Of a stretch of DNA of 64,000 bases, positions 92-11,373 are shown one piece after another (the first letter of the stretch is position 1; each line of letters opens with the position of its first letter). Both the position numbers and the translations under genes were made by a program. Source of the DNA: a virus; the UHGV virus genome UHGV-0218015; one strand, 5' to 3'. The notes beneath the pieces were generated by a model that did not search any database, was not told the DNA's origin, and saw only the letters and a list, made by a program, of their open reading frames with translations.

Positions 92-3000
92 CTAAGTACG
101 ATCCCCTAACTGCTTCCCGTTAAGTTCTCGTTTCAGTACAGCCAGAATCCACTTCCACGCTTTACTCGTGATGTGGTACGGGTTGCGTTTCTCCATTAAG
201 AACTGACTTTCGCCGCTACGGAGTTCGAAACTCTGTGCATTGAGTTGATCTTGACGGACACTTTTCTCGTCAGTGACATCTAACGAACAGGTAAAGTTAA
301 GTTCATAACCTTCCGGATTATTGCCGGGCGGTTCTAAGACAATATAAATGTCCTGACCTACACGTAAGTCCTTTGGCGTAAGAGTAATCGCTTTACCTGT
401 ATCAGAGGCGGTCGAAAGCGCAAAAGATACGCTATCAATAGCCGATACATACGGGTCCTTCCCGGCATCACCGATAATCACTTTACCCGGCCAGTTAGAC
501 TTCACCGTCCCGGCCACTTTTGCAACGCGATACTGCTGTTTATCAGCACCTTGTGCAAAGCGTAGAATGAGTTTATGGCGATAACGACTCGCAGCAGCTT
601 TAGTCGTGCTCCACTCATTATTCCAGGAAGCGTTGAGTTCACCTTTCTTGGCCATCAAGGCACCACGAGACAGCTTACGGTCAAAGAACTGCGCAGGCAA
701 CTGACCGTCATGTGAAACAGCAACACTTCCCTGGCCGGTTGGCAGCGCGATGCTTTCTGTAACGCGGTATTTCTGACTAATCTCATAAGTCGCGGGGTCA
801 ATCACAGTCTGACTAAAATCAACGTCTTTGGTATCAGCCAAATACCCAACGGACGAATCCAGATACGATTCGAACAACGAACGTAAGTAATGGTACTTAT
901 CAATGTCGACGTTACTCGTAGCCGGATCAATCAGCGCGTGACTAATCGTTACACGGCATTTCGCAGACAGTTCTTTAAACGACAATCCCACACCGTCGCC
1001 AGTGAAATAATCCACTAAATCGAACGGGAATTGAATCTCCAGCTGTCGATGTTTAACTGTTGTCGTTCCGAACTGTGAGAACGTCAGTGCTAAACGTAAT
1101 ACCCGACTGTTTACGTTGTAACGATAGCGAATCATGCCACGAGGTGCATGGTTTGCAGAAATTTTATCTCGGCTGGCACCCCAACCTATCAAGTCGAGCG
1201 TCGCCGCGTTGGTTTCCTCACCGTTGAACAACACATCCTTAAACGTTGCGGCCACTGCCGTTTCCCCAGACTCCTCCATCACTAACGGAATATCCGTAAC
1301 AGCAGAATCTGAACGGGAACCAATCCCCAACTTACAGGTTTTGGTAGTTAGGTCAATGCGCAGATAGCGACGTTTAACGCTGCTACCTTGCGTTGACGTG
1401 CATAGAACCAAATCCGGCGCAGCAGCAAGGGCTTGCGTTCCACCAACATCGTCAACATCGAACGCAAACGAGCCTTCGAATGTCGGTGCGTTGTTTTCTT
1501 TCGGGTTAAATGGTGTAAACCAACAATACGGCGTAGCACCTTCAGGTATCACAACGTATTGAAGACTCGACTTCACGTTTTGGTTGTGTGCGTAAGTATA
1601 AAGACCACGACTGACAAGATGGAAAACATCCCCTGTAGCGGTTGCTAACGGTTTCCTAAAGATACACGCTCTTGGTTCGGCAATAGCACGGTTTAATAAC
1701 GGCAACCGTGGGTTATCCGTCAGTGACCAGTCCGCAGCGTTGAGACCGTGTGCCTTACGAATACTATTATGCTCGCTAACTTCCGCACTTTTCCCGAAAT
1801 CAAACGTGGTTTCAAATCCCACGGTTTTATTCGCGTAAGACTGACCAGGAACGATATCAACATAACCGATATATCCGCGTTCTGGATCGACCTCAAATCC
1901 TTGAACTGGTTCAGCACGCGAATACAGAGAGCCTGTGAGCATGTTAACGTACAAATAATGACGAATACCTACATGCGTTGTGACAAACTCCTGGAGAAGC
2001 TCTACACGCGTTTCAGGACCACTGAAATAAACGGGGTAGTCACCATCGTAAACTTCGAACTGTACCGCTGCAGATTTAGCCGTGTCACTACACTCTGCTT
2101 TAACAGCAATTGTGTAGTTTTCAACATCTGGAGACGTTCCATAGTTCATTAACAATGGCGACGCACCAGTAGCGCCTACAACACCATTTACATAAACGGT
2201 TATTGTCCCACCGCCAGCGGCATAAACAAACAGCCTTTTCTGACGAGCTTTGACGCGCGTTTTAGCCAGTACCGATACAACGGACTGAACGCCCATCTGG
2301 GTGGCGCTTTTACCTACCGGAACTGACTGAAACCCCATTGTTGGGGGATCAACAATTCCATCCCAACTAATCCCGGTACCTTTACTCACCTTACCCGTAG
2401 GCCAAGTCAGCTCAAGTTGGTTGTTCGGTGAGAACCAGTTAAACATCGGAGTGGTTTGCAGGTCAATCGCACCGGTAACGGTACTGTCACCTTTCGTGCC
2501 GTCCAGCAAATAGAAATATTTCAAATCCTGAACGGAGATTGCCGTACCCTGGCTATTAAATCGCCAGTCTGCGCCTTTTACAGCAGCGAAATCCGTGACT
2601 GTTCCTTCTTTCGCATTTGCAATTGCCGCAGCGACCACACTTAAACGTGCCGAAAGCTCTTTTAGGATGTTCGGTACCACTGCACGGTTTTCAACCAAAC
2701 CGTTCTGGTTAGTTGCATAACGACCAATACCGTAAACAGATTGAGAAGCTTTATAAATACCTAACTCCGACCAATCGTGATGATGGCCCACATCTGCTAG
2801 ACCGCTAACCGCCTCAGTTAACTTGGTTGACAACGGTTTGTCAAGATCTGCGGTATTATCCGCTTGCCCTAACCCCAGGTCAGCTTTCGTGATTGTCCTG
2901 GAGCCGTCATTCATTGGCTTACCGTTAATCATGGTCGTTTTAGCCACATACCCCGATAGGTCGGTCGCATATGGCGCTAACGAAGCCGGAGTTGCTGCAA

Positions 3001-4276
3001 CCCCAACGATTTCTGTACCTTTACCAGTTTTAAGCTTAACAACACCTTTTTCAGTGGTTGTCGCTTTCGTCGGGTCGATAGTACCCACGATAGGATCGGT
3101 CCGAGAGCCTTTACCGGTGAAGCTAATCCCATTACGGCCTTCGATGTACACCTTTGAGTCGTCGGGGTCACCGCCACCGCTCCCGCCAGCATCAGGATCT
3201 TGTTGGTATTCCATCAATGCTGTGGTGGTCAGTAACGGGTTACCGTTTAGGGTGAGTTTGTTCATCCCTAAAGCATCGCCTGTTGACTCGATACGTAGGA
3301 TGTTTTTACCAGCACGCCAGTTAATGTAACGTCCTGCACCCGTTCCTTCCAGATGCCCTACCGATAACACTACAGAACCGTTGGATTTTAACGTAAAGCC
3401 ATCATTCGCAAAAATGATTTCTGACTCACCGTTTTTTGAGCGGAACTGTGCACGGTTTCCTGACACCGTACAGTTAAACACACCCCGTACTTCTGAAGAA
3501 ATCCAGTGGGAGATATACGTGTCAATAACTGACTGTGGTAAACGAAACGCTTTCAGCTCATCCGTCAATGCTTTCAACTTTAACCCGTACGCCATAAAGG
3601 TGTCGGGTGTTTTCAAGTTAACAGGATGTGCGTTAATCTGTGCAGAAGTGGTTTGGTGCGGGTTGGTTTCCGCGATGTGTGCCGGGTAGTTAAATGTCTC
3701 GATTTCTTTACCCAGCGCGGCGACTAACGCTTTAACTTCGGCTAATTTATCTTTAATTAACTGGTTAGCGTCATCGGTTTTCAATTCAACATCGTGGACT
3801 GCCGACGCTAAATATTTTTTGTTTAGCAAATCCGCCCAAGACGTTGCCGCAGGCGTAGCCGGGTATAACGACGGTCTGCCTTCTAATAACAACCAGTCAG
3901 CGCTGACTGGGTTATTCAAATATTTCACCAGCTCATCGAGAATATCAACAAACGGGTCGTAGAACGTACCGCCGAGCATTTGTCCTTCAAAGGTTACGAT
4001 GCCTTTGATGGAAGGGTTGATAAGGTGTACCCCACAATACACGTTGGCTGCTACCGAGTCATCCAGTTCCGTCAGCTGATATTGCAGTTCGTAGTCCACC
4101 CCACGACTCAGTGGGGTGGTTGAACCTGGTTGTCTGACGACTAAATCTTCAAAGAACGGGCGATGGTCTAAAATCACCACCCGATCGTTGTTGTTTTCTG
4201 ACCCGATGATACGCTCCTCTAAGAAGTGATTCTCGGTTTTCGTCCCCCGAGGATCGTAAGGATACGCTTTCATCAA
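92..4276 (-). CDS. large tail fibre-like virion protein (1394 aa)
   Basis: Uninterrupted 1394-aa ORF; N-terminal region shares a module with the adjacent 1440-aa protein (PFF..LVV..G...DY); Gly/Thr/Ser-rich repetitive segments typical of fibres. Track start is TTG; an in-frame ATG follows one codon later, with an AAGGAG-like RBS. Confidence 0.6.
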   Translation of the reverse strand: MMKAYPYDPRGTKTENHFLEERIIGSENNNDRVVILDHRPFFEDLVVRQPGSTTPLSRGVDYELQYQLTELDDSVAANVYCGVHLINPSIKGIVTFEGQMLGGTFYDPFVDILDELVKYLNNPVSADWLLLEGRPSLYPATPAATSWADLLNKKYLASAVHDVELKTDDANQLIKDKLAEVKALVAALGKEIETFNYPAHIAETNPHQTTSAQINAHPVNLKTPDTFMAYGLKLKALTDELKAFRLPQSVIDTYISHWISSEVRGVFNCTVSGNRAQFRSKNGESEIIFANDGFTLKSNGSVVLSVGHLEGTGAGRYINWRAGKNILRIESTGDALGMNKLTLNGNPLLTTTALMEYQQDPDAGGSGGGDPDDSKVYIEGRNGISFTGKGSRTDPIVGTIDPTKATTTEKGVVKLKTGKGTEIVGVAATPASLAPYATDLSGYVAKTTMINGKPMNDGSRTITKADLGLGQADNTADLDKPLSTKLTEAVSGLADVGHHHDWSELGIYKASQSVYGIGRYATNQNGLVENRAVVPNILKELSARLSVVAAAIANAKEGTVTDFAAVKGADWRFNSQGTAISVQDLKYFYLLDGTKGDSTVTGAIDLQTTPMFNWFSPNNQLELTWPTGKVSKGTGISWDGIVDPPTMGFQSVPVGKSATQMGVQSVVSVLAKTRVKARQKRLFVYAAGGGTITVYVNGVVGATGASPLLMNYGTSPDVENYTIAVKAECSDTAKSAAVQFEVYDGDYPVYFSGPETRVELLQEFVTTHVGIRHYLYVNMLTGSLYSRAEPVQGFEVDPERGYIGYVDIVPGQSYANKTVGFETTFDFGKSAEVSEHNSIRKAHGLNAADWSLTDNPRLPLLNRAIAEPRACIFRKPLATATGDVFHLVSRGLYTYAHNQNVKSSLQYVVIPEGATPYCWFTPFNPKENNAPTFEGSFAFDVDDVGGTQALAAAPDLVLCTSTQGSSVKRRYLRIDLTTKTCKLGIGSRSDSAVTDIPLVMEESGETAVAATFKDVLFNGEETNAATLDLIGWGASRDKISANHAPRGMIRYRYNVNSRVLRLALTFSQFGTTTVKHRQLEIQFPFDLVDYFTGDGVGLSFKELSAKCRVTISHALIDPATSNVDIDKYHYLRSLFESYLDSSVGYLADTKDVDFSQTVIDPATYEISQKYRVTESIALPTGQGSVAVSHDGQLPAQFFDRKLSRGALMAKKGELNASWNNEWSTTKAAASRYRHKLILRFAQGADKQQYRVAKVAGTVKSNWPGKVIIGDAGKDPYVSAIDSVSFALSTASDTGKAITLTPKDLRVGQDIYIVLEPPGNNPEGYELNFTCSLDVTDEKSVRQDQLNAQSFELRSGESQFLMEKRNPYHITSKAWKWILAVLKRELNGKQLGDRT

Positions 4277-4286
4277 AAAATTCTCC

Positions 4287-7200
4287 TTAATCGCGAATGA
4301 TTACCGCCTGCACTTTATTGTCGGTGTCGATAAACGACATTACGCGCTCCTTGTTAAGATAAGGAGGTATCGGTAACGCAGCGTAATCTGCCAGGTTGTT
4401 ATTAAATTCAGTTGCCACTAACGCATTAAGCGTTTCGGGGTCTGAGCTGACACCGGACAATTCCATGACGCGTACTCGATTTAATGAGGAATAGTTGCTA
4501 ACATAGTCCAACAACGTACCGTAGACTTTGTTCGCAGTTGCGCTGTCTGCTGTAGAGCGGATGTTGGCACGAACCTCATCCTCATAAAGTCCCCCTAAAC
4601 CGTAGTAAATAGGGGTATACGGATCATTAACGATAGGTTCGATATTGAACCCGGTTAAACGGTCGGCTAATGGGATTTTCTGCGTAGTTCCCCCTGCCGC
4701 CGTACAGCTTACGTATTTATCTGTCGCGGATAAAAACACCACGATAGTATACACAGTGCCAGCTAAAGTCAGCGATGCATTAAACGTTATTGCGTTGTTT
4801 GCACCACGGGTGTGGGTAAACGTTACGTCAGGTCGTAATGAACTCCACGGTGCAGGCGTAACACGCTTCGTTGGTGTGAAACCTACCACTACCGATTTCC
4901 CGCTACCGAAGTTCAAACCGAACCCTGCGTAACAATATTCACCGTTACTGTCAGTTAAACGATAACCGCGAGTGATAAGTAATGACAACCGCATAAACTC
5001 GCCGTCGGTGTTCTTCCAACAACCTAAAACAGTTTCTAACACTGTTCCGGTTTTTGCGTTGCTTTCTGTTTCCCAACTTACCCGCATTCCTGCGTTTTTG
5101 AAAGTCGGGAATAAGTTGTGAATAAACCCGTGAACGTTGTCACTTACCCCTTTCGCATCGAAAATCCACTTTGATGCGATCTGGTCGTATTTCACCCCGT
5201 CTAAGGCTTTATACTGTCCACGAACAACATAACGCCAATCTGCTTCACCACGCACTACTGCCTGGAGTCCAGAAGCCCAGCAAGGTGCACCTACTGTTAA
5301 ATCACTTAACCCCAATACTGCACGCGAAGCAGAACGTTGAATGTGTGCGTTGTCATTAGCGATGTGGTCTTTCAGCTCGTGGAATTCGCCTAATCGTGTC
5401 ACGTTACGCAATTCCACTACGTCCACTTCGGAAAGCTCATTGACAACGAGTCTTCCCACGCGCGTCATGGTATCCGTTTCAGCCTGATTGTAGCTGTCGT
5501 GGATAACATACTTCGCTTTGTTGTCAACAATATCAACAAAAATTCCTGCGTAGATCAACGTTTTCGGATTCGGGAAACGTTCAGTGACGTTAACCGACAT
5601 TAACGGTACGTCATACGTCTCACCACCAACAAAGTACGTTGAAGCGGGGAGCATAGCCAGAATTTTGTCTTTAACCGTAACGTTAATTAAGTCGTCACCA
5701 GACTTGCCGAAACGAATAATGTCAACGCGAGCACCCGAGTCAACGCCACCGACAGCATTTTCCAATTTTTCAATCTGGGAAGTCTGCGCCATTACCACAC
5801 TCCCATCGAGTGCTAAAGTCGCATCATCCACATCCAGACCAAATTTAATCAGACCACGTTTCGCTGTGGTTGCGTTCCCAGTACCAAAAGCGGTAAACGG
5901 GTGTTGGTGAACTTTAGGCGAGTATTTATCTAACTCCGCACGTTGTGCTGTAGAAATCGGTAAATTGACATCGGGTGTATTCGCAACGTTACCTAAACCA
6001 AAGGTAATTTTGTCGATAGTGACCGAGCTGGTAAGTTGCATGTCGTTAATGTACGATTTAACCGCAACTAATTTACCGGTGAACTCCGCATCTAGTTTTT
6101 CAATCAGTGCTGGCGTTGCTGCAAGGTTTTCAGCGGTACCAAACTCATCGGTCAACTGCCAAGCTGCCAGGGCTGTTGTATCTGTCGCGGTAGGGAGAAT
6201 AAAAGTCGCTACGAACGGCGATGCTTTTATCCCGCTACCGGTAAGCTCTACCGTGGTTGTAGATGTACCGTAGAATAATCCCGTACCGCCCGCGGTATTG
6301 CCTGGCAGATACGGAGCCACGGTAGTGGGGTCTAAGAGTTTCTTACCACGCCACTGTAACCCACGATCATCAGGATACAATATAAGTTGGTTAGTACCTG
6401 CTTGAAACGTTACAGGGTTATTCCCCGCATTAACCTCGGTTGAACCTTGTCCAATAAACTTAATGGATTTCGGGTCAACGACAAACTGGGCACCTAAACG
6501 GGTCCCGTCAACGACGTCGGGCGCTTTCTTAATGGTAACCGTGTTACCTTTATTCCCCGAGCTAATAGTGACATTGTCAGCAACATTACTGATCAATGAT
6601 TTAAAGTGGTGGCTATTCTCCAATGCTTCTAGTGCAGCGTCCATGTTAGTGAAGTTAACACGTGCACTGTATGTCTTGCCGTTTATGGTAATAACGACAT
6701 CAAACACGTTCCCTGTGCGTTTCAGTTGAAAACGCAGCGTAAAATCCCCATCCGGTATTGCTGGATTAGGAGCTTGGGAAAGATACTGAACTTCAGGTGT
6801 GGGATTCGAAAAACCGTTCAGTTCCAACTTAACGCCGACTTTACCCGCAGAAATTTCACCTGTAAGCTGGATAAATTTTCCAGAGTTAGTACCAGGTTTC
6901 TGATAGAAACGTAGGCTAACCGTACCGACAGCTTCATTACCAGACGCTGTTTTACGTCCGGTAACAATAAAGTCAATATCTTGCAGGTTAGCAGGTACCG
7001 CATTAAAAGAAGTGGCGAATCCACTCTTCGTTCCTGTGTAACGAAGCGCACCGTGATACCTGTGACCATTACTAACGTAGCTTTCGCTAAAACGAGGACT
7101 CACGTATTTCGACATTGACACCGGGTCAACTTCCGTCGTGAACGAAGTAAAACCGGGCAGCGTTCCAATAGTTCCGTTAGCCGTTTTCGTAGCTGACGTG

Positions 7201-8609
7201 CGCAATAGTTTCTTTTGTGCTGTCAGCGTCGCTTGTGTTGGATACTTAGCATTAACATAATCCGTTAACTGCGGCTTCGTTTTTCCGTAAGCTAATGCTG
7301 CATCCGACGCAATACCGTTCAACTCTAACGCACGGATCGGACCCCACGTATCTGTGTGTGGGTTGTCCTTACGTGTAACGTGTTCGTGCGCAGGCGCATT
7401 ACGATACAGCTGCTCAACCAACTGATGATACTTAACTATTAACTGGTAAACATCGTTATCAACGTCAGGCTCCGGCGCACCGGGTAAAGAACGAATTTGA
7501 ACATTATCGTTTTCAGCCGCATACCAGTTCAGGTTAATGTTCGTTTTAGACTTCAACCATTTGGCTACATCCGTTTTCGAATACCCTGCCGAGAACTCAT
7601 CAGGTGGCGTATCGACGTTGAACGTATAATCCATGGTCTGTTTATTTGTTTTTACTACGATTACGTAAACGCCGTTTCCGGGTTGTCGGGTTACACTAAA
7701 ATCGATATCGTTTTTTAACTCATCGTCAGTTAAACCGTTGATTAAAGTATAATCGTAGTTTGATGAACCGCTTCCAATAGCGACAGTTAAGACCAGTGAG
7801 ATTTTGCGCTGTTTTAGCTGCAACCGTAGAATGCTTGCACCACCGTTGGCATAACAGAGCATCCAATCGATCTGCTCGTTCGGATTCAACTTTGTCATGT
7901 CCGGCAGAATAGCAGGAATTCTGTGTTTCACCGACAGGGAATAGTTGTTAAAGGTTGTCGCTTTATAACTCAGGCTATAACGGTGGCGAGCTGTGTTGTA
8001 GGTGAAACCGCCTTTATTATCGTACGCAGCATACTGCTCGGAAGTGATAACCTTGCTATTAGCACGATATTCCAAATCCAGTGTATTGCGTGCGATTGGG
8101 TTAAGACGACTCACGACTTCCCCTAACGAATCGCCTACCCCAGCAATGGCCTGCATTAGCTCCAGTTCACCTTTCCAATTCTCCCAATCGAACTGGATAT
8201 CGACCGGTGGAAAGTAAACGTCTCCGATGACGGTGTCCCACTGACACGCGGAGGGGTATTTACCTTTATTAAGCTCGCGCTCTGCGGTAATCTGCTCTTG
8301 GGTTGCTTCACCACAACCAACGGCATGGTAATCTACAGTAAAGTTCGATTTGTATTTGTCATTAACAATCCAAATCATCCCGTGAATGAGATAGGCTGTG
8401 CGCAACATACCAGTCTCGTACGGGTGTGTAATAACGTAATCGTCGCCTAAGGTCAGTATTTTGCCGCCGCTCTTGACCACCAGGGATGTGGTGAAAAAAG
8501 GGGCGTGGGCAGGTACCAACATTCGGTATTTCGTACCAATGACGGCGACCGCTTCACCGGTTATTTTATTCCCCGGTTTTTTGAAGTGTGGGTCTAAGAC
8601 GACAGCCAT
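4287..8609 (-). CDS. large tail fibre / tailspike-like virion protein (1440 aa)
   Basis: 1440-aa ORF with ATG start at 8609, 10 nt upstream of the next gene; N-terminal module shared with the 1394-aa protein; long beta-rich, Gly/Thr/Asn-rich sequence. Confidence 0.6.
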   Translation of the reverse strand: MAVVLDPHFKKPGNKITGEAVAVIGTKYRMLVPAHAPFFTTSLVVKSGGKILTLGDDYVITHPYETGMLRTAYLIHGMIWIVNDKYKSNFTVDYHAVGCGEATQEQITAERELNKGKYPSACQWDTVIGDVYFPPVDIQFDWENWKGELELMQAIAGVGDSLGEVVSRLNPIARNTLDLEYRANSKVITSEQYAAYDNKGGFTYNTARHRYSLSYKATTFNNYSLSVKHRIPAILPDMTKLNPNEQIDWMLCYANGGASILRLQLKQRKISLVLTVAIGSGSSNYDYTLINGLTDDELKNDIDFSVTRQPGNGVYVIVVKTNKQTMDYTFNVDTPPDEFSAGYSKTDVAKWLKSKTNINLNWYAAENDNVQIRSLPGAPEPDVDNDVYQLIVKYHQLVEQLYRNAPAHEHVTRKDNPHTDTWGPIRALELNGIASDAALAYGKTKPQLTDYVNAKYPTQATLTAQKKLLRTSATKTANGTIGTLPGFTSFTTEVDPVSMSKYVSPRFSESYVSNGHRYHGALRYTGTKSGFATSFNAVPANLQDIDFIVTGRKTASGNEAVGTVSLRFYQKPGTNSGKFIQLTGEISAGKVGVKLELNGFSNPTPEVQYLSQAPNPAIPDGDFTLRFQLKRTGNVFDVVITINGKTYSARVNFTNMDAALEALENSHHFKSLISNVADNVTISSGNKGNTVTIKKAPDVVDGTRLGAQFVVDPKSIKFIGQGSTEVNAGNNPVTFQAGTNQLILYPDDRGLQWRGKKLLDPTTVAPYLPGNTAGGTGLFYGTSTTTVELTGSGIKASPFVATFILPTATDTTALAAWQLTDEFGTAENLAATPALIEKLDAEFTGKLVAVKSYINDMQLTSSVTIDKITFGLGNVANTPDVNLPISTAQRAELDKYSPKVHQHPFTAFGTGNATTAKRGLIKFGLDVDDATLALDGSVVMAQTSQIEKLENAVGGVDSGARVDIIRFGKSGDDLINVTVKDKILAMLPASTYFVGGETYDVPLMSVNVTERFPNPKTLIYAGIFVDIVDNKAKYVIHDSYNQAETDTMTRVGRLVVNELSEVDVVELRNVTRLGEFHELKDHIANDNAHIQRSASRAVLGLSDLTVGAPCWASGLQAVVRGEADWRYVVRGQYKALDGVKYDQIASKWIFDAKGVSDNVHGFIHNLFPTFKNAGMRVSWETESNAKTGTVLETVLGCWKNTDGEFMRLSLLITRGYRLTDSNGEYCYAGFGLNFGSGKSVVVGFTPTKRVTPAPWSSLRPDVTFTHTRGANNAITFNASLTLAGTVYTIVVFLSATDKYVSCTAAGGTTQKIPLADRLTGFNIEPIVNDPYTPIYYGLGGLYEDEVRANIRSTADSATANKVYGTLLDYVSNYSSLNRVRVMELSGVSSDPETLNALVATEFNNNLADYAALPIPPYLNKERVMSFIDTDNKVQAVIIRD

Positions 8610-8678: not shown

Positions 8679-9941
8679 GTGACTACTGCTTATCAAGTGC
8701 GACCCGACAGCGCTTTTGGCTTCTCTCGAGAGTCCCGTACCTGGGGAGCCATCGATGTCACGCAACCTTTAACTACGTTGTGTTCAGACTACCACACCTT
8801 TGAGATCGGTTTAAGTGCACTTGGTAAAGACTATACGTTAGTCAGTCAATACCATCTTGCCGAACTACAAAACCGAACAGACACTTTACAAGATTGGTTA
8901 AACGAAAAAGCCGGAAACGTCATTCCCACTCTAAAGACCGGATTGCCGAAACTGGAATTCAGTTGGGCACATTACCAATCAATTAATGCCGATGTACCTG
9001 TCGAAACATATCTGTGTCCACCAGGGTACCATCACAGTCAAGATTTCAGCTTAGACGATGCTGATGACGTTGTCGTCGTTTGTGAGGACAAGTGGAAAGA
9101 CAAATACCGTAATAGTGTGCTGTACAACATTAACGGTCAATGGGTACCACACCAGACGGATACCGTAGGTGTGCGATTGCCTGGGGCCGGTAAAATCGTA
9201 CGGAGAGCATGTACGCCAGATATTGGCTGTATGGTTTTTGGTCAGCTAGGGAATGTTAAAACCTATCCAATCGCCAACCTTACGCTAAACAAGCTCGACA
9301 CTACACGCGACTATTACTCCACGTTAATGATATCGCTGCCTGAGTCTATTACGGGGAAAACCGTGGGTTTCGTCATAGGCGGATTGCTACGTTGGTTGCC
9401 ACCGGACGGTTATTTCTCTGACCGTGCGATCATGATTTCTTTACCGAATTTTGATCTTGCACGGACCGTTCTGGAGACCCGACGTTATTACGACTGGGAT
9501 AGCATCGGTGTGGGGGATTTATCATCGCCTACCAACGTTCAACGTATTCGTAACCCTGAAACACTGAAAGCGCTTTTACTGCACGAATCCTCTTTTATCT
9601 TTACGGTAGATAATCCGTATTTAGAAGAAGAAGTTGTGGGTGTTTCGCATAACGCAGTTTGGGGACGTTGTTATCTCAAGGACCCCACCGATCCTGATTC
9701 TGAAAAACCATTAGGGTACTTAAATAATCGATTTGGAAAGACGGTAGGTTATTGGCCTACGTGGGAGGAAGGTGAGTGGGTATTTAACACCACCGAATTC
9801 GACAGTCAAAACTACGTCTTTCGTGAAGCCCGGTGGTATAATCAGAAGAAGATTAACGATGCTCAAGCAATCGTTGGTCCATTCGGTCCCTGGGAAAAAG
9901 TGTATTTAGAAATGCATCGCTTTAGAGCACGAAAAAAATAA
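8679..9941 (+). CDS. hypothetical protein (420 aa), possibly fibre-associated
   Basis: Complete ORF with GTG start, divergent from the fibre genes and followed by a strong terminator hairpin; no recognisable catalytic motifs. Confidence 0.5.
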   Translation: MTTAYQVRPDSAFGFSRESRTWGAIDVTQPLTTLCSDYHTFEIGLSALGKDYTLVSQYHLAELQNRTDTLQDWLNEKAGNVIPTLKTGLPKLEFSWAHYQSINADVPVETYLCPPGYHHSQDFSLDDADDVVVVCEDKWKDKYRNSVLYNINGQWVPHQTDTVGVRLPGAGKIVRRACTPDIGCMVFGQLGNVKTYPIANLTLNKLDTTRDYYSTLMISLPESITGKTVGFVIGGLLRWLPPDGYFSDRAIMISLPNFDLARTVLETRRYYDWDSIGVGDLSSPTNVQRIRNPETLKALLLHESSFIFTVDNPYLEEEVVGVSHNAVWGRCYLKDPTDPDSEKPLGYLNNRFGKTVGYWPTWEEGEWVFNTTEFDSQNYVFREARWYNQKKINDAQAIVGPFGPWEKVYLEMHRFRARKK

Positions 9942-9946
9942 AGTAA

Positions 9947-9988
9947 CCTCCTACCCTCTTAGAGGGTAGGAGTAGCACGTTTTTTTTT
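9947..9988. terminator. bidirectional rho-independent terminator
   Basis: Hairpin CCTCCTACCCTCTT / AGAGGGTAGGAG followed by a T8 run; lies between convergent genes 8679..9941 (+) and 9992..10219 (-). Confidence 0.7.
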
Positions 9989-9991
9989 CGC

Positions 9992-10219
9992 TTAGTCTTT
10001 TTTGTAGACAATCGCGTTACCGTGCAGTTTGTTGTTGCCGGAAATACCGATAACTTTGAATGCGTCGCCGCCAATTTTTTCGGCTTCAGCAGCCAGTTTA
10101 CCAGTTACATGATCAACGGTATCGCCGAAAGCGCTAACGTTACCGATTTTCTTAAACTCTTCTGGAATATGCTCAGCAGAAGAGAACTCTTTAATAGACA
10201 TAACAGCTCTCCATTTCAA
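9992..10219 (-). CDS. DUF1471 (BhsA/YdgH/McbA-like) domain protein lacking a signal peptide
   Basis: C-terminal ...KIGNVSAFGDTVD...KLAAEAEKIGGDAFKVIGISGNNKLHGNAIVYKK matches from memory the enterobacterial BhsA/YcfR C-terminus (...ITSVTGPNTLHGTAVIYK); no hydrophobic leader at the N-terminus. Probable ATG start at about 10201. Confidence 0.7.
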   Translation of the reverse strand: MKWRAVMSIKEFSSAEHIPEEFKKIGNVSAFGDTVDHVTGKLAAEAEKIGGDAFKVIGISGNNKLHGNAIVYKKD

Positions 10220-10407
10220 AAGGTTAGTGGTCTAAGACCGACGTGTGTTACAACCGAAGCATAAGATAGCTCCTCCCCGTAGGGAGGAGTAGAGTGCGCG
10301 AAAAAAGTGGCCTGCTTAACTAAACGATGGGTTTAAGAAAAGTGTTGATAAAAAGTTTTACCAACGTCAGGTCACAATATATAAAAACAACGTAAGAAAA
10401 AGGGGAA

Positions 10408-11373
10408 TTATTGCGGAGGCGATGTCGGGCCATGTTTACCTTGGTGAATGTGAACGCTAAAGGTAATACCAGAAATAACGGCATCTTTAACCGTAAAGAC
10501 ACCGACGCCTTTGCCCGTACCACCGTATTTGAAGTTCTTAGCGACTTCCAGATTACCGGTGAACATCGCTTCCTTCCCTTCTTGTTTAAAGTTCGGCGTT
10601 TTAAATGTTGTCGAACTCCCTGCTTCCGTTAACCAGGTTTGTGTTTTAAACGTAACGGATTTCGCTGCTTCCGTATTGCGAACTTCGCATTTTTCATTAA
10701 TCGTTTTCGTTTCCAGGTTAATAGAACGCTTTGAATAAATGAACGCATCTTCTTTGTTGATGTTCACTTTTGAGAGCATCGCATTCTCAAAACCTAAATC
10801 GTCTTCCACCGAGTTAATGTAATACTTATTCCCTTTGTGGTCAACACACTGCCACGTGCCATTTGCATTATCAAACTGAAATAACCACGCCGCTTTCTCA
10901 CCGTTCACCATACTTGTTCTTAGCGTGATATGTTTGTCAATCGTCGAGATATTCAACACATACGCATTGGACAGGTCATCCGCCATCTGGTTTTCAGGGT
11001 CAGCAGACCACGCGTAAACCGCATCCTCTAATCGCTTAACGTTAGCGAAGTTCAGATCAATCCAAAAATAAATATCGGTTTTCCCCAAACGTAACAAGAT
11101 AACGTAATCTTCTCGTTTAACGTCAGGGGAATTAATTCGGTTGGAGTTAAACTTCCACCACTTTGCTGTTATCGTGTTACCCGTCTTAATGGTTAGGTTA
11201 TCTGTTGCACCAGACGTTTCATGCGTCTTTTCAGTTGCTGAAGAAACAGATTGCACCACGGTAGGGTTAGCAAAGTTGGTTTCAATTGGTATCACTTTTA
11301 CCCGATCTGTACCACGGGGTTTGTCTTCCGCGACGATACCAACTGAGAAAAAATCAACACTGGATTTCTCCAT
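10408..11373 (-). CDS. hypothetical protein (321 aa), possibly structural
   Basis: Complete minus-strand ORF downstream of the promoter-like region at about 11400; beta-rich, Thr/Asn-rich composition. Confidence 0.5.
   Translation of the reverse strand: MEKSSVDFFSVGIVAEDKPRGTDRVKVIPIETNFANPTVVQSVSSATEKTHETSGATDNLTIKTGNTITAKWWKFNSNRINSPDVKREDYVILLRLGKTDIYFWIDLNFANVKRLEDAVYAWSADPENQMADDLSNAYVLNISTIDKHITLRTSMVNGEKAAWLFQFDNANGTWQCVDHKGNKYYINSVEDDLGFENAMLSKVNINKEDAFIYSKRSINLETKTINEKCEVRNTEAAKSVTFKTQTWLTEAGSSTTFKTPNFKQEGKEAMFTGNLEVAKNFKYGGTGKGVGVFTVKDAVISGITFSVHIHQGKHGPTSPPQ

What the first reader, a model, noticed from the sequence alone, without database searches (positions are those of the whole stretch)
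9992..10219. Host-like DUF1471 (BhsA/YdgH family) gene without a signal peptide
The C-terminal 50 residues closely track the enterobacterial BhsA/YcfR stress and biofilm protein, which is normally secreted, but this copy has a polar N-terminus and no leader. It sits alone on the minus strand downstream of a bidirectional terminator, a typical arrangement for an acquired gene. It also points to an enterobacterial host.
Basis: partly seen in the sequence, partly recalled or inferred. Interest (0 to 1): 0.45.

Follow-up and report, generated by a model that had tools for sequence, protein, structure and literature searches.

The report
Leaderless DUF1471 gene of a jumbo phage
This is a real 69-residue gene: a copy, without the export signal, of a small enterobacterial periplasmic domain (DUF1471) that one lineage of giant phages has long kept next to its tail-spike gene; it is already annotated in relatives, its function is unknown, and it is not a recent pick-up of the host stress gene bhsA.

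Summary
Window 9992-10201 (-) encodes a 69-aa protein. The start is ATG 10201, not TTG 10219. It passes Pfam DUF1471 (38.2 bits, cut-off 27) and is predicted to adopt the DUF1471 fold. It has no signal peptide, and an in-frame TAG at 10234-10232 rules out a longer N-terminus.

- It is the ortholog of SPN3US gp172 (PHROG 8068). Homologs occur in about 60 SPN3US-like jumbo phages of Salmonella, Erwinia, E. coli, Cronobacter and Proteus.
- In all 13 loci inspected the order is the same: tail spike, then DUF1471, then a convergent gp171-like tail gene.
- It is under purifying selection (dN/dS 0.03-0.25) and has the phage's own GC content.
- It fails the BhsA equivalog model (46.8 bits, cut-off 90; 34% identity to E. 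coli BhsA).
- So the capture is old and fixed in the lineage, not a recent moron.

Two deeply diverged alleles (41-50% identity) have been swapped between genera, and the swap is confined to the ORF.

Published mass spectrometry detects gp172 in CsCl-step virions and strongly in crude pellets. It is absent from highly purified tails. Virion association is therefore loose at best.

Most likely it is a late, cytoplasmically made accessory protein of the tail module that meets the cell envelope only from outside. This is a new member of a known kind, of modest interest.

The parts
9992..10201 (-). Coding sequence of the leaderless DUF1471 protein (69 aa plus TAA at 9994-9992); ortholog of SPN3US gp172
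   Evidence: ORF and sequence. Pfam PF07338 38.2 bits, above 27. PHROG 8068 full length, E 4.5e-32. AF2 pLDDT 89.4 and DUF1471 fold matches. dN/dS 0.03-0.25 among close homologs.
10207..10212 (-). Shine-Dalgarno sequence GGAGAG, GGAG ending 7 nt before ATG 10201
   Evidence: Read from the sequence. A GGAG or GAGG motif sits at the same distance in the phage homologs, except that the Derbicus window printed lies upstream of a mis-annotated GTG start.
10232..10234 (-). In-frame TAG that closes the reading frame upstream; no longer N-terminus is possible
   Evidence: upstream in-frame translation.
9932..9988 (.). Bidirectional intrinsic terminator shared with the convergent gp171-like gene: A9 run, hairpin 9948-9972 (11 bp, CTCCTACCCTC/GAGGGTAGGAG), T7 run
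   Evidence: Terminator scan. Fold energy -29.7 and -28.1 kcal/mol, z -5.4 and -5.5 on the two strands. A similar hairpin occupies the same spacer in all 10 relatives checked, with the CTCCTACTCCC...GGGAGTAGGAG core in most and a diverged stem in the Derbicusvirus group.
10270..10289 (-). Hairpin CTCCTCCC-TACG-GGGAGGAG between the spike gene and the DUF1471 gene; probable end of the spike transcription unit (inferred)
   Evidence: Relatives have a hairpin plus T-run at the equivalent place.
10260..10263 (-). TATG, 62 nt upstream of the ATG; candidate late promoter or start site (inferred only)
   Evidence: A TATG lies 45-69 nt upstream of the start codon in all 13 phages, and TATGC is invariant in the 8-phage alignment. 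The phiKZ non-virion RNA polymerase uses TATG with G as the start site (PMC5312081). The motif is not enriched elsewhere in the window.
10408..11373 (-). Upstream neighbour: central tail spike (cell-puncturing protein), homolog of phiKZ gp164 and SPN3US gp173, with a Mu gp45-like apex domain
   Evidence: phmmer to PDB 6ORJ (PHIKZ164) E 2.3e-21. C-terminal residues 267-320 match Mu gp45 (3VTN, 3VTO, 9KI1), including the HIH motif. phrog_3216 baseplate protein, E 8e-114.
8679..9941 (+). Convergent neighbour: homolog of SPN3US gp171, an essential tail-associated protein
   Evidence: phrog_3337 E 3e-144. 76% identity to SPN3US gp171. gp171 is essential and tail-associated in SPN3US (PMC5105663).
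92..8609 (-). Two large baseplate or fibre candidate genes (4287-8609 and 92-4276), homologs of SPN3US gp170 and gp169 (paralog family C)
   Evidence: PHROGs 7557 and 8078. DNA similarity to SPN3US-like phages. Baseplate/tail-fibre candidates in SPN3US (PMC5694885).

Best explanation
What it is (about 0.95 sure): the window's ortholog of SPN3US gp172. This is a DUF1471 domain that corresponds to the mature, signal-less form of an enterobacterial periplasmic protein. An ancestor of the SPN3US-like jumbo phages captured it, and it has stayed fixed directly downstream of the central tail-spike gene.

How it most likely works (inferred, about 0.4):
- It is transcribed late as its own short unit, bounded by an upstream hairpin and a bidirectional terminator. 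A conserved TATG 62 nt upstream is a candidate promoter.
- It is translated in the cytoplasm and cannot be exported by Sec.
- It therefore does not do the BhsA-type job in the periplasm of the producing cell.
- It acts as a small accessory protein of the tail and host-recognition module. It meets the bacterial envelope only from outside, either riding loosely on particles (as reported for gp172) or released at lysis.
- It binds a partner at the phage-envelope interface that is not yet known.

Shown: gene identity, fold, lack of leader, synteny, purifying selection and allele exchange. Shown in SPN3US, not here: the protein is made and co-purifies with particles at low stringency. Inferred: timing, promoter, site of action and partner.
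For: - Family and fold.
- No leader in any of the 13 phage copies, and no usable upstream extension.
- A profile search of 1.84 billion representative proteins found 91 hits. The phage-type representatives are 68-78 aa and align from residue 1. The bacterial hits are mostly 80-90 aa and carry a hydrophobic leader.
- The gene order spike, DUF1471, convergent gp171 holds in five genera. The neighbours are tail proteins.
- Purifying selection: dN/dS 0.03-0.25. GC content is that of the phage.
- There are two allele classes, A and B, 41-50% identical to each other. Their distribution disagrees with the flanking genes: ChrisDB and Caitlin are 84-85% identical in the spike and gp171 but 47% in this gene.
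- The drop in DNA identity is confined to the ORF: 32-63% inside against 75-92% in the flanks. Conversely, SPAsTU and Asesino are 83-95% identical inside the ORF against 60-75% in the flanks. Such swapping is typical of genes at the phage-host interface.
[quoted passage not shown] It is labelled 'Tail' in PMC7411985 Table S2, with 13 spectra in a crude pelleted fraction.
- The signal sequence is not needed for a DUF1471 domain to fold (PMC4092069).
Against: - Virion association is not robust. gp172 gave 0 spectra in virions purified by step plus buoyant-density gradients. It also gave 0 in three purified prohead-plus-tail samples in which the spike gp173 gave 3/27/26 spectra and gp171 gave 23/39/39.
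- The authors note that the low-mass gel region may have been missed and that the protein's status is unresolved.
- The spike already carries its own Mu gp45-like apex, so a PAAR-like tip position is unlikely.
- Allele type does not co-vary with the spike, gp171 or the gp170 N-terminus, so no partner is indicated.
- All phage copies are acidic, pI 4.4-6.3. This argues against SrfN-like binding of polyanions.
- No experiment bears on the window's own protein.
Confidence: 0.4

Rival explanations
1. It is a non-structural assembly factor. The small acidic cytoplasmic protein would help fold or assemble a tail, baseplate or fibre component and then be discarded. Its traces in virion preparations would be carry-over.
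For: - It is most abundant in the crude pelleted fraction (13 spectra). It declines with purification and is absent from highly purified tails and virions.
- It lies inside the tail module.
- It is small and acidic.
Against: - The two deeply different alleles work beside nearly identical spike and gp171 proteins, and allele type does not track the gp170 N-terminus. No co-evolving client is visible.
- The DUF1471 fold has no known chaperone role.
- A free 7-kDa soluble protein would not be expected to pellet in differential centrifugation unless it is bound to something (inference).
Confidence: 0.25
2. It is a cytoplasmic, or phage-nucleus, protein with a function unrelated to the envelope or the tail, for example binding a host or phage factor. 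Its position beside the spike gene would then be a historical accident.
For: - The lack of a leader puts it in the cytoplasm by default.
- It appears to have its own transcription unit, separated from the spike gene by 200-400 nt and a hairpin.
- Small phage genes in mosaic regions often have host-directed roles (general knowledge).
Against: - The position inside the tail module is strictly conserved across five genera.
- It is classed with the tail proteins in SPN3US proteomics.
- There is no match to known defence or counter-defence models.
Confidence: 0.2
3. One reading: a recently acquired host bhsA-like moron that changes stress resistance or biofilm behaviour of the infected cell.
For: - Among the NCBIfam models, BhsA is the best-scoring one for the window protein.
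- Some GenBank records label the homolog 'multiple stress resistance protein BhsA'.
Against: - It falls below the BhsA equivalog cut-off (46.8 against 90) and is 34% identical to E. coli BhsA.
- It has no leader. Periplasmic localisation was required for function of the one DUF1471 protein tested, YdgH (PMC11705850).
- It is fixed at one locus in a whole lineage of virulent jumbo phages, has the phage's GC content and is under purifying selection.
- A scan of one genome per bacterial species found no close bacterial relative.
Confidence: 0.03
4. It is a decaying or non-functional remnant of a captured gene.
For: The signal peptide has been lost, and no function has been demonstrated.
Against: - The ORF is intact in all 13 loci inspected, with a conserved start and Shine-Dalgarno sequence.
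- dN/dS is 0.03-0.25.
- The protein is detected in SPN3US.
- The identical 69-aa sequence is listed in 876 blocks of the public assembly collection.
- The predicted fold is confident.
Confidence: 0.02

Closest known systems
SPN3US gp172 (SPN3US_0172; PHROG 8068; RefSeq 'DUF1471 domain-containing protein')
   Same: Same length (69 aa), same locus between the spike (gp173) and the convergent gp171, same leaderless N-terminus (MSI[KR]E...), and same Pfam domain (43.5 bits).
   Different: Only 44-45% identical. The window protein belongs to allele class A (with SPAsTU/STsAS 80%, ChrisDB 78%, Asesino 72%), whereas SPN3US carries class B. The proteomic data exist only for SPN3US.
Enterobacterial single-domain DUF1471 proteins (BhsA/YcfR, YbiJ, McbA/YbiM, YahO, YhcN)
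   Same: Same Pfam family and the same alpha+beta fold. The phage protein spans the whole mature domain: it aligns to BhsA residues 16-85 and to mature YahO 9-69. Conserved core motifs are kept (G.VS..G....L...A...GA..F.I....GNN..HG.A..YK).
   Different: No Sec signal peptide. About 34% identical to BhsA and 29% to YahO, and below every subfamily cut-off in NCBIfam. It is encoded by a virulent jumbo phage, not a bacterium.
PAAR spike-tip gene of PhiPA3 and 201phi2-1
   Same: A small gene occupying the slot immediately downstream of the gp164-type spike gene, on the same strand.
   Different: No sequence or fold relationship. The SPN3US-like spike has its own Mu gp45-type apex. In the SPN3US-like phages a 200-400 nt spacer with a hairpin separates the two genes. 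The analogy is positional only.
RcsF (outer-membrane lipoprotein sensor of the Rcs envelope-stress system)
   Same: It is among the best structural matches of the model (2Y1B, TM 0.85 normalised to the query). RcsF is the closest non-family fold to DUF1471 according to PMC4092069.
   Different: 12% identity. The phage protein has no lipobox, no signal and no cysteines, whereas RcsF activity depends on its disulfides (PMC4092069). This is a fold resemblance only.

Membership tests
Pfam PF07338 (DUF1471; YdgH/BhsA/McbA-like domain) | Profile match at or above the curated gathering score | tested here: met
   38.2 bits against a cut-off of 27, E 1.4e-9, residues 17-67 on profile positions 2-55 of 55. 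SPN3US gp172 scores 43.5 bits.
Pfam PF07338 (DUF1471; YdgH/BhsA/McbA-like domain) | Compact alpha+beta fold (short strand 1, strand 2, helix, strands 3 and 4) as in the solved YahO, SrfN and YdgH domains | tested here: met
   AF2 pLDDT 89.4, elements E4-6, E16-26, H29-42, E47-54, E59-68. Top Foldseek PDB matches 4EVU, 2M2J, 2MA8, 2JNA and 2NOC, TM 0.72-0.78.
Pfam PF07338 (DUF1471; YdgH/BhsA/McbA-like domain) | N-terminal Sec signal sequence and periplasmic location (typical of most members, not part of the domain model) | tested here: not met
   The N-terminus is polar (maximum hydropathy 0.40, against 2.2-2.7 in BhsA and YahO). The frame is closed upstream. The same holds in all 13 phage copies. 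Localisation itself is not testable here.
Pfam PF07338 (DUF1471; YdgH/BhsA/McbA-like domain) | Occurrence restricted to Enterobacteriaceae/Enterobacterales genomes | tested here: not met
   It is encoded by a phage. The cultured phages carrying it do all infect Enterobacterales. The host of the window phage is unknown.
BhsA/YcfR subfamily (NCBIfam NF047859, equivalog) | Whole-protein score at or above the curated cut-off (90 bits) | tested here: not met
   46.8 bits, matching only profile positions 30-85. E. coli BhsA scores 137.4 as a control. 34% identity by BLASTP.
YahO, YbiJ, McbA and YhcN subfamilies (NCBIfam) | Whole-protein score at or above the curated cut-off | tested here: not met
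   YbiJ 33.8 against 110; YahO 24.9 against 90; McbA 22.9 against 110; YhcN 18.8 against 125.
SPN3US gp172 ortholog group (PHROG 8068) | Full-length profile match and about 70-aa length | tested here: met
   E 4.5e-32, residues 1-69 on profile positions 1-70 of 70.
SPN3US gp172 ortholog group (PHROG 8068) | Conserved locus: downstream of the gp173-type spike and convergent with the gp171-type tail gene | tested here: met
   Window map and 12 related genomes in five genera.
SPN3US gp172 ortholog group (PHROG 8068) | Presence of the protein in purified virions | not testable with these tools
   Published SPN3US data are mixed: detected in CsCl-step virions, absent after further purification and from purified tails.
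Moron or recently acquired accessory gene | Patchy presence among close relatives, atypical composition, close donor homolog | tested here: not met
   It is present at the same locus in every SPN3US-like genome inspected. GC is 42.4% against 44.7 +/- 3.9% for the window. No bacterial relative was found by the pattern plus tblastn scan of 185,579 species genomes.
Moron or recently acquired accessory gene | Own transcription signals (promoter and terminator) separate from neighbouring operons | tested here: inconclusive
   The terminator is clear. There is an upstream hairpin and a conserved TATG, but the motif is not enriched in the window and no transcript data are available.

The most novel reading that the evidence does not exclude
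A periplasmic-type host domain has been repurposed as cargo that reaches the periplasm or envelope from outside, bypassing Sec. It would be carried loosely on the tail or baseplate and released during penetration or at lysis. There it would mimic or interfere with a host DUF1471 or RcsF-like envelope factor, or mask receptors on debris. The two ancient alleles that are shuffled between phage genera would then reflect an arms race with the host envelope.
Probability: 0.12. Interest if true: 0.65.

Novelty: new member of a known kind. Interest (0 to 1): 0.33.

Why it matters
DUF1471 proteins are a large family of envelope proteins that is confined to the enterobacteria and remains poorly understood. 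This phage lineage has kept a signal-less copy under selection for a long time, beside its cell-puncturing spike, and it exchanges two very different versions between genera. The phage copy is therefore a natural handle on what the domain binds. It is also the smallest unexplained protein reported in SPN3US virion preparations. The finding supports an enterobacterial host for an uncultivated phage of about 225 kb that recurs in many metagenome assemblies. It is not a new kind of system, and the gene is already annotated in relatives.

Tried and rejected
- **Dating the capture by phylogeny.** A neighbour-joining tree on the 60 alignable columns, with 85 bacterial representatives, does not recover the phage copies as one clade (2 of 300 bootstraps). 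The domain is too short, so one capture cannot be distinguished from several. A first attempt with Biopython timed out.
- **Looking for a bacterial donor.** A pattern plus tblastn scan of one genome per bacterial species found none. The word-indexed protein search returned only phage-type sequences.
- **Co-variation of allele type with a neighbour, to nominate a partner.** None was found with the spike, gp171 or the gp170 N-terminus.
- **A general promoter motif.** TTAC-N14-19-TATGC gave 3 hits against 2.5 expected in the window. The conserved CCACTTTTTTCGC is unique to this spacer.
- **RNA families.** Rfam finds nothing credible in 9850-10500. RNAalifold gives no consensus structure for the conserved part of the spacer.
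- **Other libraries.** PADLOC defence models give no hit. A megablast of the locus against phage genomes gives no near-identical record.
- **Literature.** No paper in the library discusses phage DUF1471 or BhsA genes. The SPN3US infection time-course proteome (J Virol 2019) is not held.
- **Co-folding.** A fused-chain model with the spike apex was considered and dropped.
Full report
**1. What is there**

The minus strand of the window carries an ORF ending at TAA 9994-9992. The mechanical ORF begins at TTG 10219, but the biological start is ATG 10201. Three observations support this:
- GGAG lies 7 nt upstream of that ATG.
- The twelve phage homologs I extracted all begin at the aligned methionine, behind the same kind of ribosome-binding site.
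- PHROG 8068 aligns residues 1-69 to profile positions 1-70.

The product is MSIKEFSSAEHIPEEFKKIGNVSAFGDTVDHVTGKLAAEAEKIGGDAFKVIGISGNNKLHGNAIVYKKD (69 aa, 7.4 kDa, pI 6.3). An in-frame TAG at 10234-10232 closes the frame, so no longer N-terminus exists.

**2. Family and fold**

- Pfam PF07338 (DUF1471, YdgH/BhsA/McbA-like) is matched at 38.2 bits against a gathering score of 27.
- By sequence, the only solved relatives are the two Salmonella YahO entries (2MA4, 2NOC; E about 2e-3). Their alignment covers the whole mature YahO domain.
- An AlphaFold2 model built on eight phage sequences is confident (pLDDT 89.4, pTM 0.74) with strand-strand-helix-strand-strand topology.
- Most of its top Foldseek matches in the PDB are solved DUF1471 domains: YdgH domains 4EVU and 2M2J, SrfN 2MA8 and 2JNA, and YahO 2NOC (TM 0.72-0.78). 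RcsF also ranks high, and the literature already names it as the nearest outside fold (PMC4092069).
- At subfamily level it fails every curated NCBIfam model: BhsA 46.8 bits against 90, YbiJ 33.8 against 110, YahO 24.9 against 90. E. coli BhsA passes at 137 bits.
- BLASTP gives 34% identity to E. coli BhsA (residues 1-67 against 16-85) and 29% to YahO.

It is therefore a DUF1471 domain but not a BhsA ortholog. 'Closely tracks BhsA' is too strong.

**3. No leader**

- The highest 10-residue hydropathy in the first 30 residues is 0.40. The range is 0.3-1.2 in all thirteen phage copies, against 2.2 and 2.7 in BhsA and YahO.
- I searched 1.84 billion representative proteins with a profile of the phage sequences and found 91 hits.
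- The phage-type representatives are 68-78 aa and align from residue 1.
- The bacterial hits are mostly 80-90 aa, with the match starting near residue 27-35 behind a hydrophobic leader.
- The few short exceptions look like truncated or mis-started gene calls (the last point is my reading of the sequences).
- The phage protein starts within a few residues of where signal peptidase cuts the bacterial proteins. In effect it is the mature domain.
- The literature shows that the signal sequence is not needed for this domain to fold (PMC4092069).

**4. Context in the window**

- Upstream on the same strand is a 321-aa protein (10408-11373), which is the central tail spike. It matches phiKZ gp164 (PDB 6ORJ, E 2e-21), and its last 54 residues match the apex domain of the Mu gp45 puncturing device, including the His-x-His motif. 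It also matches phrog_3216.
- Downstream and convergent is the homolog of SPN3US gp171 (8679-9941, +). In SPN3US this protein is essential and tail-associated.
- Beyond that lie two proteins of about 1400 aa belonging to the gp169/gp170 baseplate or fibre family.
- The gene is therefore not alone on its strand. The inverted gene is the gp171 homolog.
- The bidirectional terminator is real: an 11-bp GC-rich hairpin at 9948-9972 between A9 and T7 runs, z about -5.4 on both strands. It lies at the 3' end of the gene.
- A similar hairpin, with the same stem sequence in most, occupies this spacer in all ten relatives I checked.
- A second hairpin (10270-10289) lies between the spike gene and this gene.

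**5. Distribution**

- tblastn against 50,697 phage genomes finds the protein in 60 records at E <= 1e-3. All are jumbo phages of 197-251 kb of the SPN3US-like group: Erwinia 32, Salmonella 22, Escherichia 2, Cronobacter 2, Proteus 1 and Enterobacteria 1.
- Relaxing to E <= 10 adds a few more members of the same group (Caitlin and, apparently, some Derbicusvirus-group records) plus spurious hits.
- The spike, by contrast, has homologs in 290 jumbo-phage records from many host genera. None of these phages outside the SPN3US-like group appeared among the DUF1471 tblastn hits, even at E <= 10.
- In the outgroups I inspected, the slot after the spike is empty (Vibrio Yong MS32, Pseudomonas OBP, Klebsiella N1M2). 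In PhiPA3 it holds a PAAR spike-tip gene behind a shorter spike.
- In all 13 SPN3US-like loci I inspected (Seoulvirus, Machinavirus, Erskinevirus, Wellingtonvirus and Derbicusvirus) the order is spike, DUF1471, convergent gp171.
- The capture therefore happened in this lineage and has been kept since.
- The window phage itself is uncultivated. No phage record is near-identical at DNA level, and the closest protein is 80% identical (STsAS/SPAsTU).
- The exact 69-aa sequence is indexed in 876 blocks of the public assembly collection. The four contigs shown are 223-228 kb, and two IMG/VR contigs are 221 and 225 kb.

**6. Selection and allele exchange**

- Close pairs give dN/dS of 0.03-0.25. The gene's GC content (42.4%) is that of the phage (44.7 +/- 3.9%). 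It is a working, long-resident gene.
- Unexpectedly, the copies fall into deeply different classes. Class A comprises the window, SPAsTU, ChrisDB, Asesino and phiEaH2 (71-97% identical to one another). Class B comprises SPN3US, pEa_SNUABM_29 and Caitlin (72-84%). A and B are only 41-50% identical.
- These classes cut across genome relationships. The identity matrices of the spike and gp171 agree with each other (Spearman 0.94) and with taxonomy.
- Yet SPAsTU and SPN3US (75% and 85% identical in the neighbours) share 43% here, and ChrisDB and Caitlin (84% and 85%) share 47%.
- Sliding-window DNA identity shows that the break is confined to the ORF. For ChrisDB against Caitlin the flanks and upstream spacer are 75-92% identical and the ORF 32-63%.
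- SPAsTU and Asesino, from different genera, are 83-95% identical inside the ORF but 60-75% outside.
- The gene has therefore been exchanged as a cassette at least twice.
- Allele type does not co-vary with the spike, gp171 or the mosaic N-terminus of gp170, so the data do not nominate a partner.

**7. Origin**

- DUF1471 is described as exclusive to Enterobacteriaceae. It has about twelve paralogous subfamilies that are more than 50% identical within and 20-40% identical between (PMC4092069; PMC11705850).
- The phage copies are 42-57% identical to their nearest bacterial representatives over 60 columns, about as far as classes A and B are from each other.
- A neighbour-joining tree does not resolve whether the phage copies form one clade.
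- The shared locus, the shared length and the shared N-terminus (MSI[KR]E) make a single capture followed by divergence and exchange the simpler reading. This is inference.
- No close bacterial relative turned up in a scan of one genome per species.

**8. Experimental record for the ortholog**

- SPN3US_0172 is the syntenic 69-aa gene and passes Pfam DUF1471 at 43.5 bits.
- Ali et al. 2017 list gp172 as the smallest protein found in CsCl-step-purified virions: 7 kDa, 4 peptides, 6 spectra, 81% coverage, function unknown.
- They did not detect it in gene 47 amber mutant, 47(am1), particles, and they state that its status needs further work (PMC5694885).
- Reilly et al. 2020 (Table S2) class it as 'Tail', a label derived from its absence in tailless heads.
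- Their spectral counts are: 6 in wild type, 3 in one suppressed mutant, 0 in virions purified by step plus buoyant-density gradients, 2 in DNA-full heads, and 13 in a crude differential-centrifugation pellet.
- The count is 0 in three well-purified prohead-plus-tail samples in which the spike gp173 (3/27/26) and gp171 (23/39/39) are plentiful (PMC7411985).
- My reading is that the protein is made in good amounts late in infection and sediments with large material. It sticks to particles only loosely, or the low-mass gel region was sometimes lost.
- I found no paper that connects gp172 with DUF1471 or comments on the missing leader. RefSeq does label the SPN3US gene 'DUF1471 domain-containing protein', and several Erwinia phage records say 'putative BhsA'.

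**9. Expression signals (inferred)**

- The spacer between the spike gene and this gene is long for a phage (about 210-400 nt) and partly better conserved than the coding flanks.
- In all 13 phages a TATG lies 45-69 nt before the start codon, in the relatives just after a hairpin and T-run. TATGC is invariant in the eight-phage alignment.
- The phiKZ late (non-virion) RNA polymerase uses TATG with the G as the start site (PMC5312081).
- This fits a short late monocistronic unit. However, a 4-5 nt motif is weak evidence, and the extended motif is not enriched in the window.

**10. Mechanism and rivals**

- The leaderless domain is made in the cytoplasm, so it cannot act where bacterial DUF1471 proteins act unless it arrives there from outside.
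- Several observations point the same way: its fixed place in the tail-spike and fibre module, the 'tail' classification, the low-stringency virion signal in SPN3US, and the cassette-like exchange of alleles in a recombination-prone host-range region.
- On this basis my best guess (about 0.4) is a late accessory protein that works at the phage-envelope interface, loosely carried on particles or released at lysis.
- The main rival (about 0.25) is a discarded assembly factor. That reading fits the loss on purification but not the lack of any co-varying client.
- A cytoplasmic role unrelated to the tail (about 0.2) cannot be excluded.
- Two points count against specific versions of my favoured reading. 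The spike has its own apex, so a PAAR-like tip site is unlikely. All phage copies are acidic, so SrfN-like polyanion binding is unlikely.

**11. Verdict**

The interpretation needs revising: this is a domesticated, lineage-wide phage gene, not a fresh host pick-up and not BhsA. It is a new member (allele class A, in an uncultivated phage of about 225 kb) of a known and annotated phage protein family whose function is still open. The leaderless state and the allele swapping are worth a note to people working on SPN3US-like phages or on DUF1471, but they do not amount to a new kind of system.

Noticed in passing
window 10290-10407 (minus strand); also the spike-to-DUF1471 spacers of L001, L003, L006-L012: The spacer after the spike stop codon carries blocks conserved across four genera: TTAC, then 13-16 nt, then (A/T)TGTGAC, then about 55 nt containing TCGCTTG. 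It ends in GCCACTTTTTTCGC (window 10298-10310, unique in the window). In ChrisDB against Caitlin this spacer is 80-92% identical, more than the coding flanks. It could be a second promoter-like element driving a short transcript that ends at the T6 run. RNAalifold and Rfam gave nothing.
   Followed up: partly
window 10408-11373 (-): The tail spike is a fusion-like protein. Residues 4-259 match phiKZ gp164 (6ORJ), and residues 267-320 match the Mu gp45 apex with its His-x-His motif. PhiPA3 instead has a shorter spike followed by a separate PAAR gene, so two different spike-tip solutions exist within the phiKZ-like phages.
   Followed up: partly
window 4287-8609 (-): The gp170-like fibre or baseplate protein is 1440 aa, against about 1237 aa in SPN3US. 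DNA similarity to known phages covers only about 43-44% of the gene, within its 5' 2.7 kb, so the C-terminal 555 or so residues (window 4287-5952) appear novel. Its N-terminal 360 aa are mosaic: 71% identical to SPN3US but 45% to SPAsTU, the reverse of what the DUF1471 gene shows.
   Followed up: partly
window 9948-9972 and 10270-10289; spacers in L001, L003, L006-L008, L011-L015: The terminator hairpin downstream of the DUF1471 gene has a nearly fixed stem sequence (CTCCTAC(T/C)CC...GGGAGTAGGAG) in most of the relatives, with a diverged stem in the Derbicusvirus group. The hairpin upstream of the gene in the window has a related stem (CTCCTCCC/GGGAGGAG). I did not test whether this hairpin type is reused genome-wide.
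   Followed up: no
L016-L020, L025-L029 (metagenome and IMG/VR contigs): The exact 69-aa protein is indexed in 876 blocks of the public assembly collection. The four contigs shown there are 223-228 kb with the same gene order, and two IMG/VR contigs carrying it are 221 and 225 kb. The window phage is therefore an uncultivated jumbo phage that recurs in many samples. I did not look up the sample types.
   Followed up: no
L009 2115-2273 and 2787-3347; L010 2123-2281 and 2805-3371: In the Wellingtonvirus genomes, extra small ORFs are annotated on either side of the DUF1471 gene: 52 aa in the upstream spacer and about 186 aa downstream. The DUF1471 protein there has an acidic C-terminal tail of 5-10 extra residues.
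   Followed up: no
records MH221128.1 (STsAS) and MT799840.1 (JN03), seen: The DUF1471 gene is present but not annotated in these two GenBank records. In Derbicus it is annotated with a GTG start 12 codons too far upstream.
   Followed up: no
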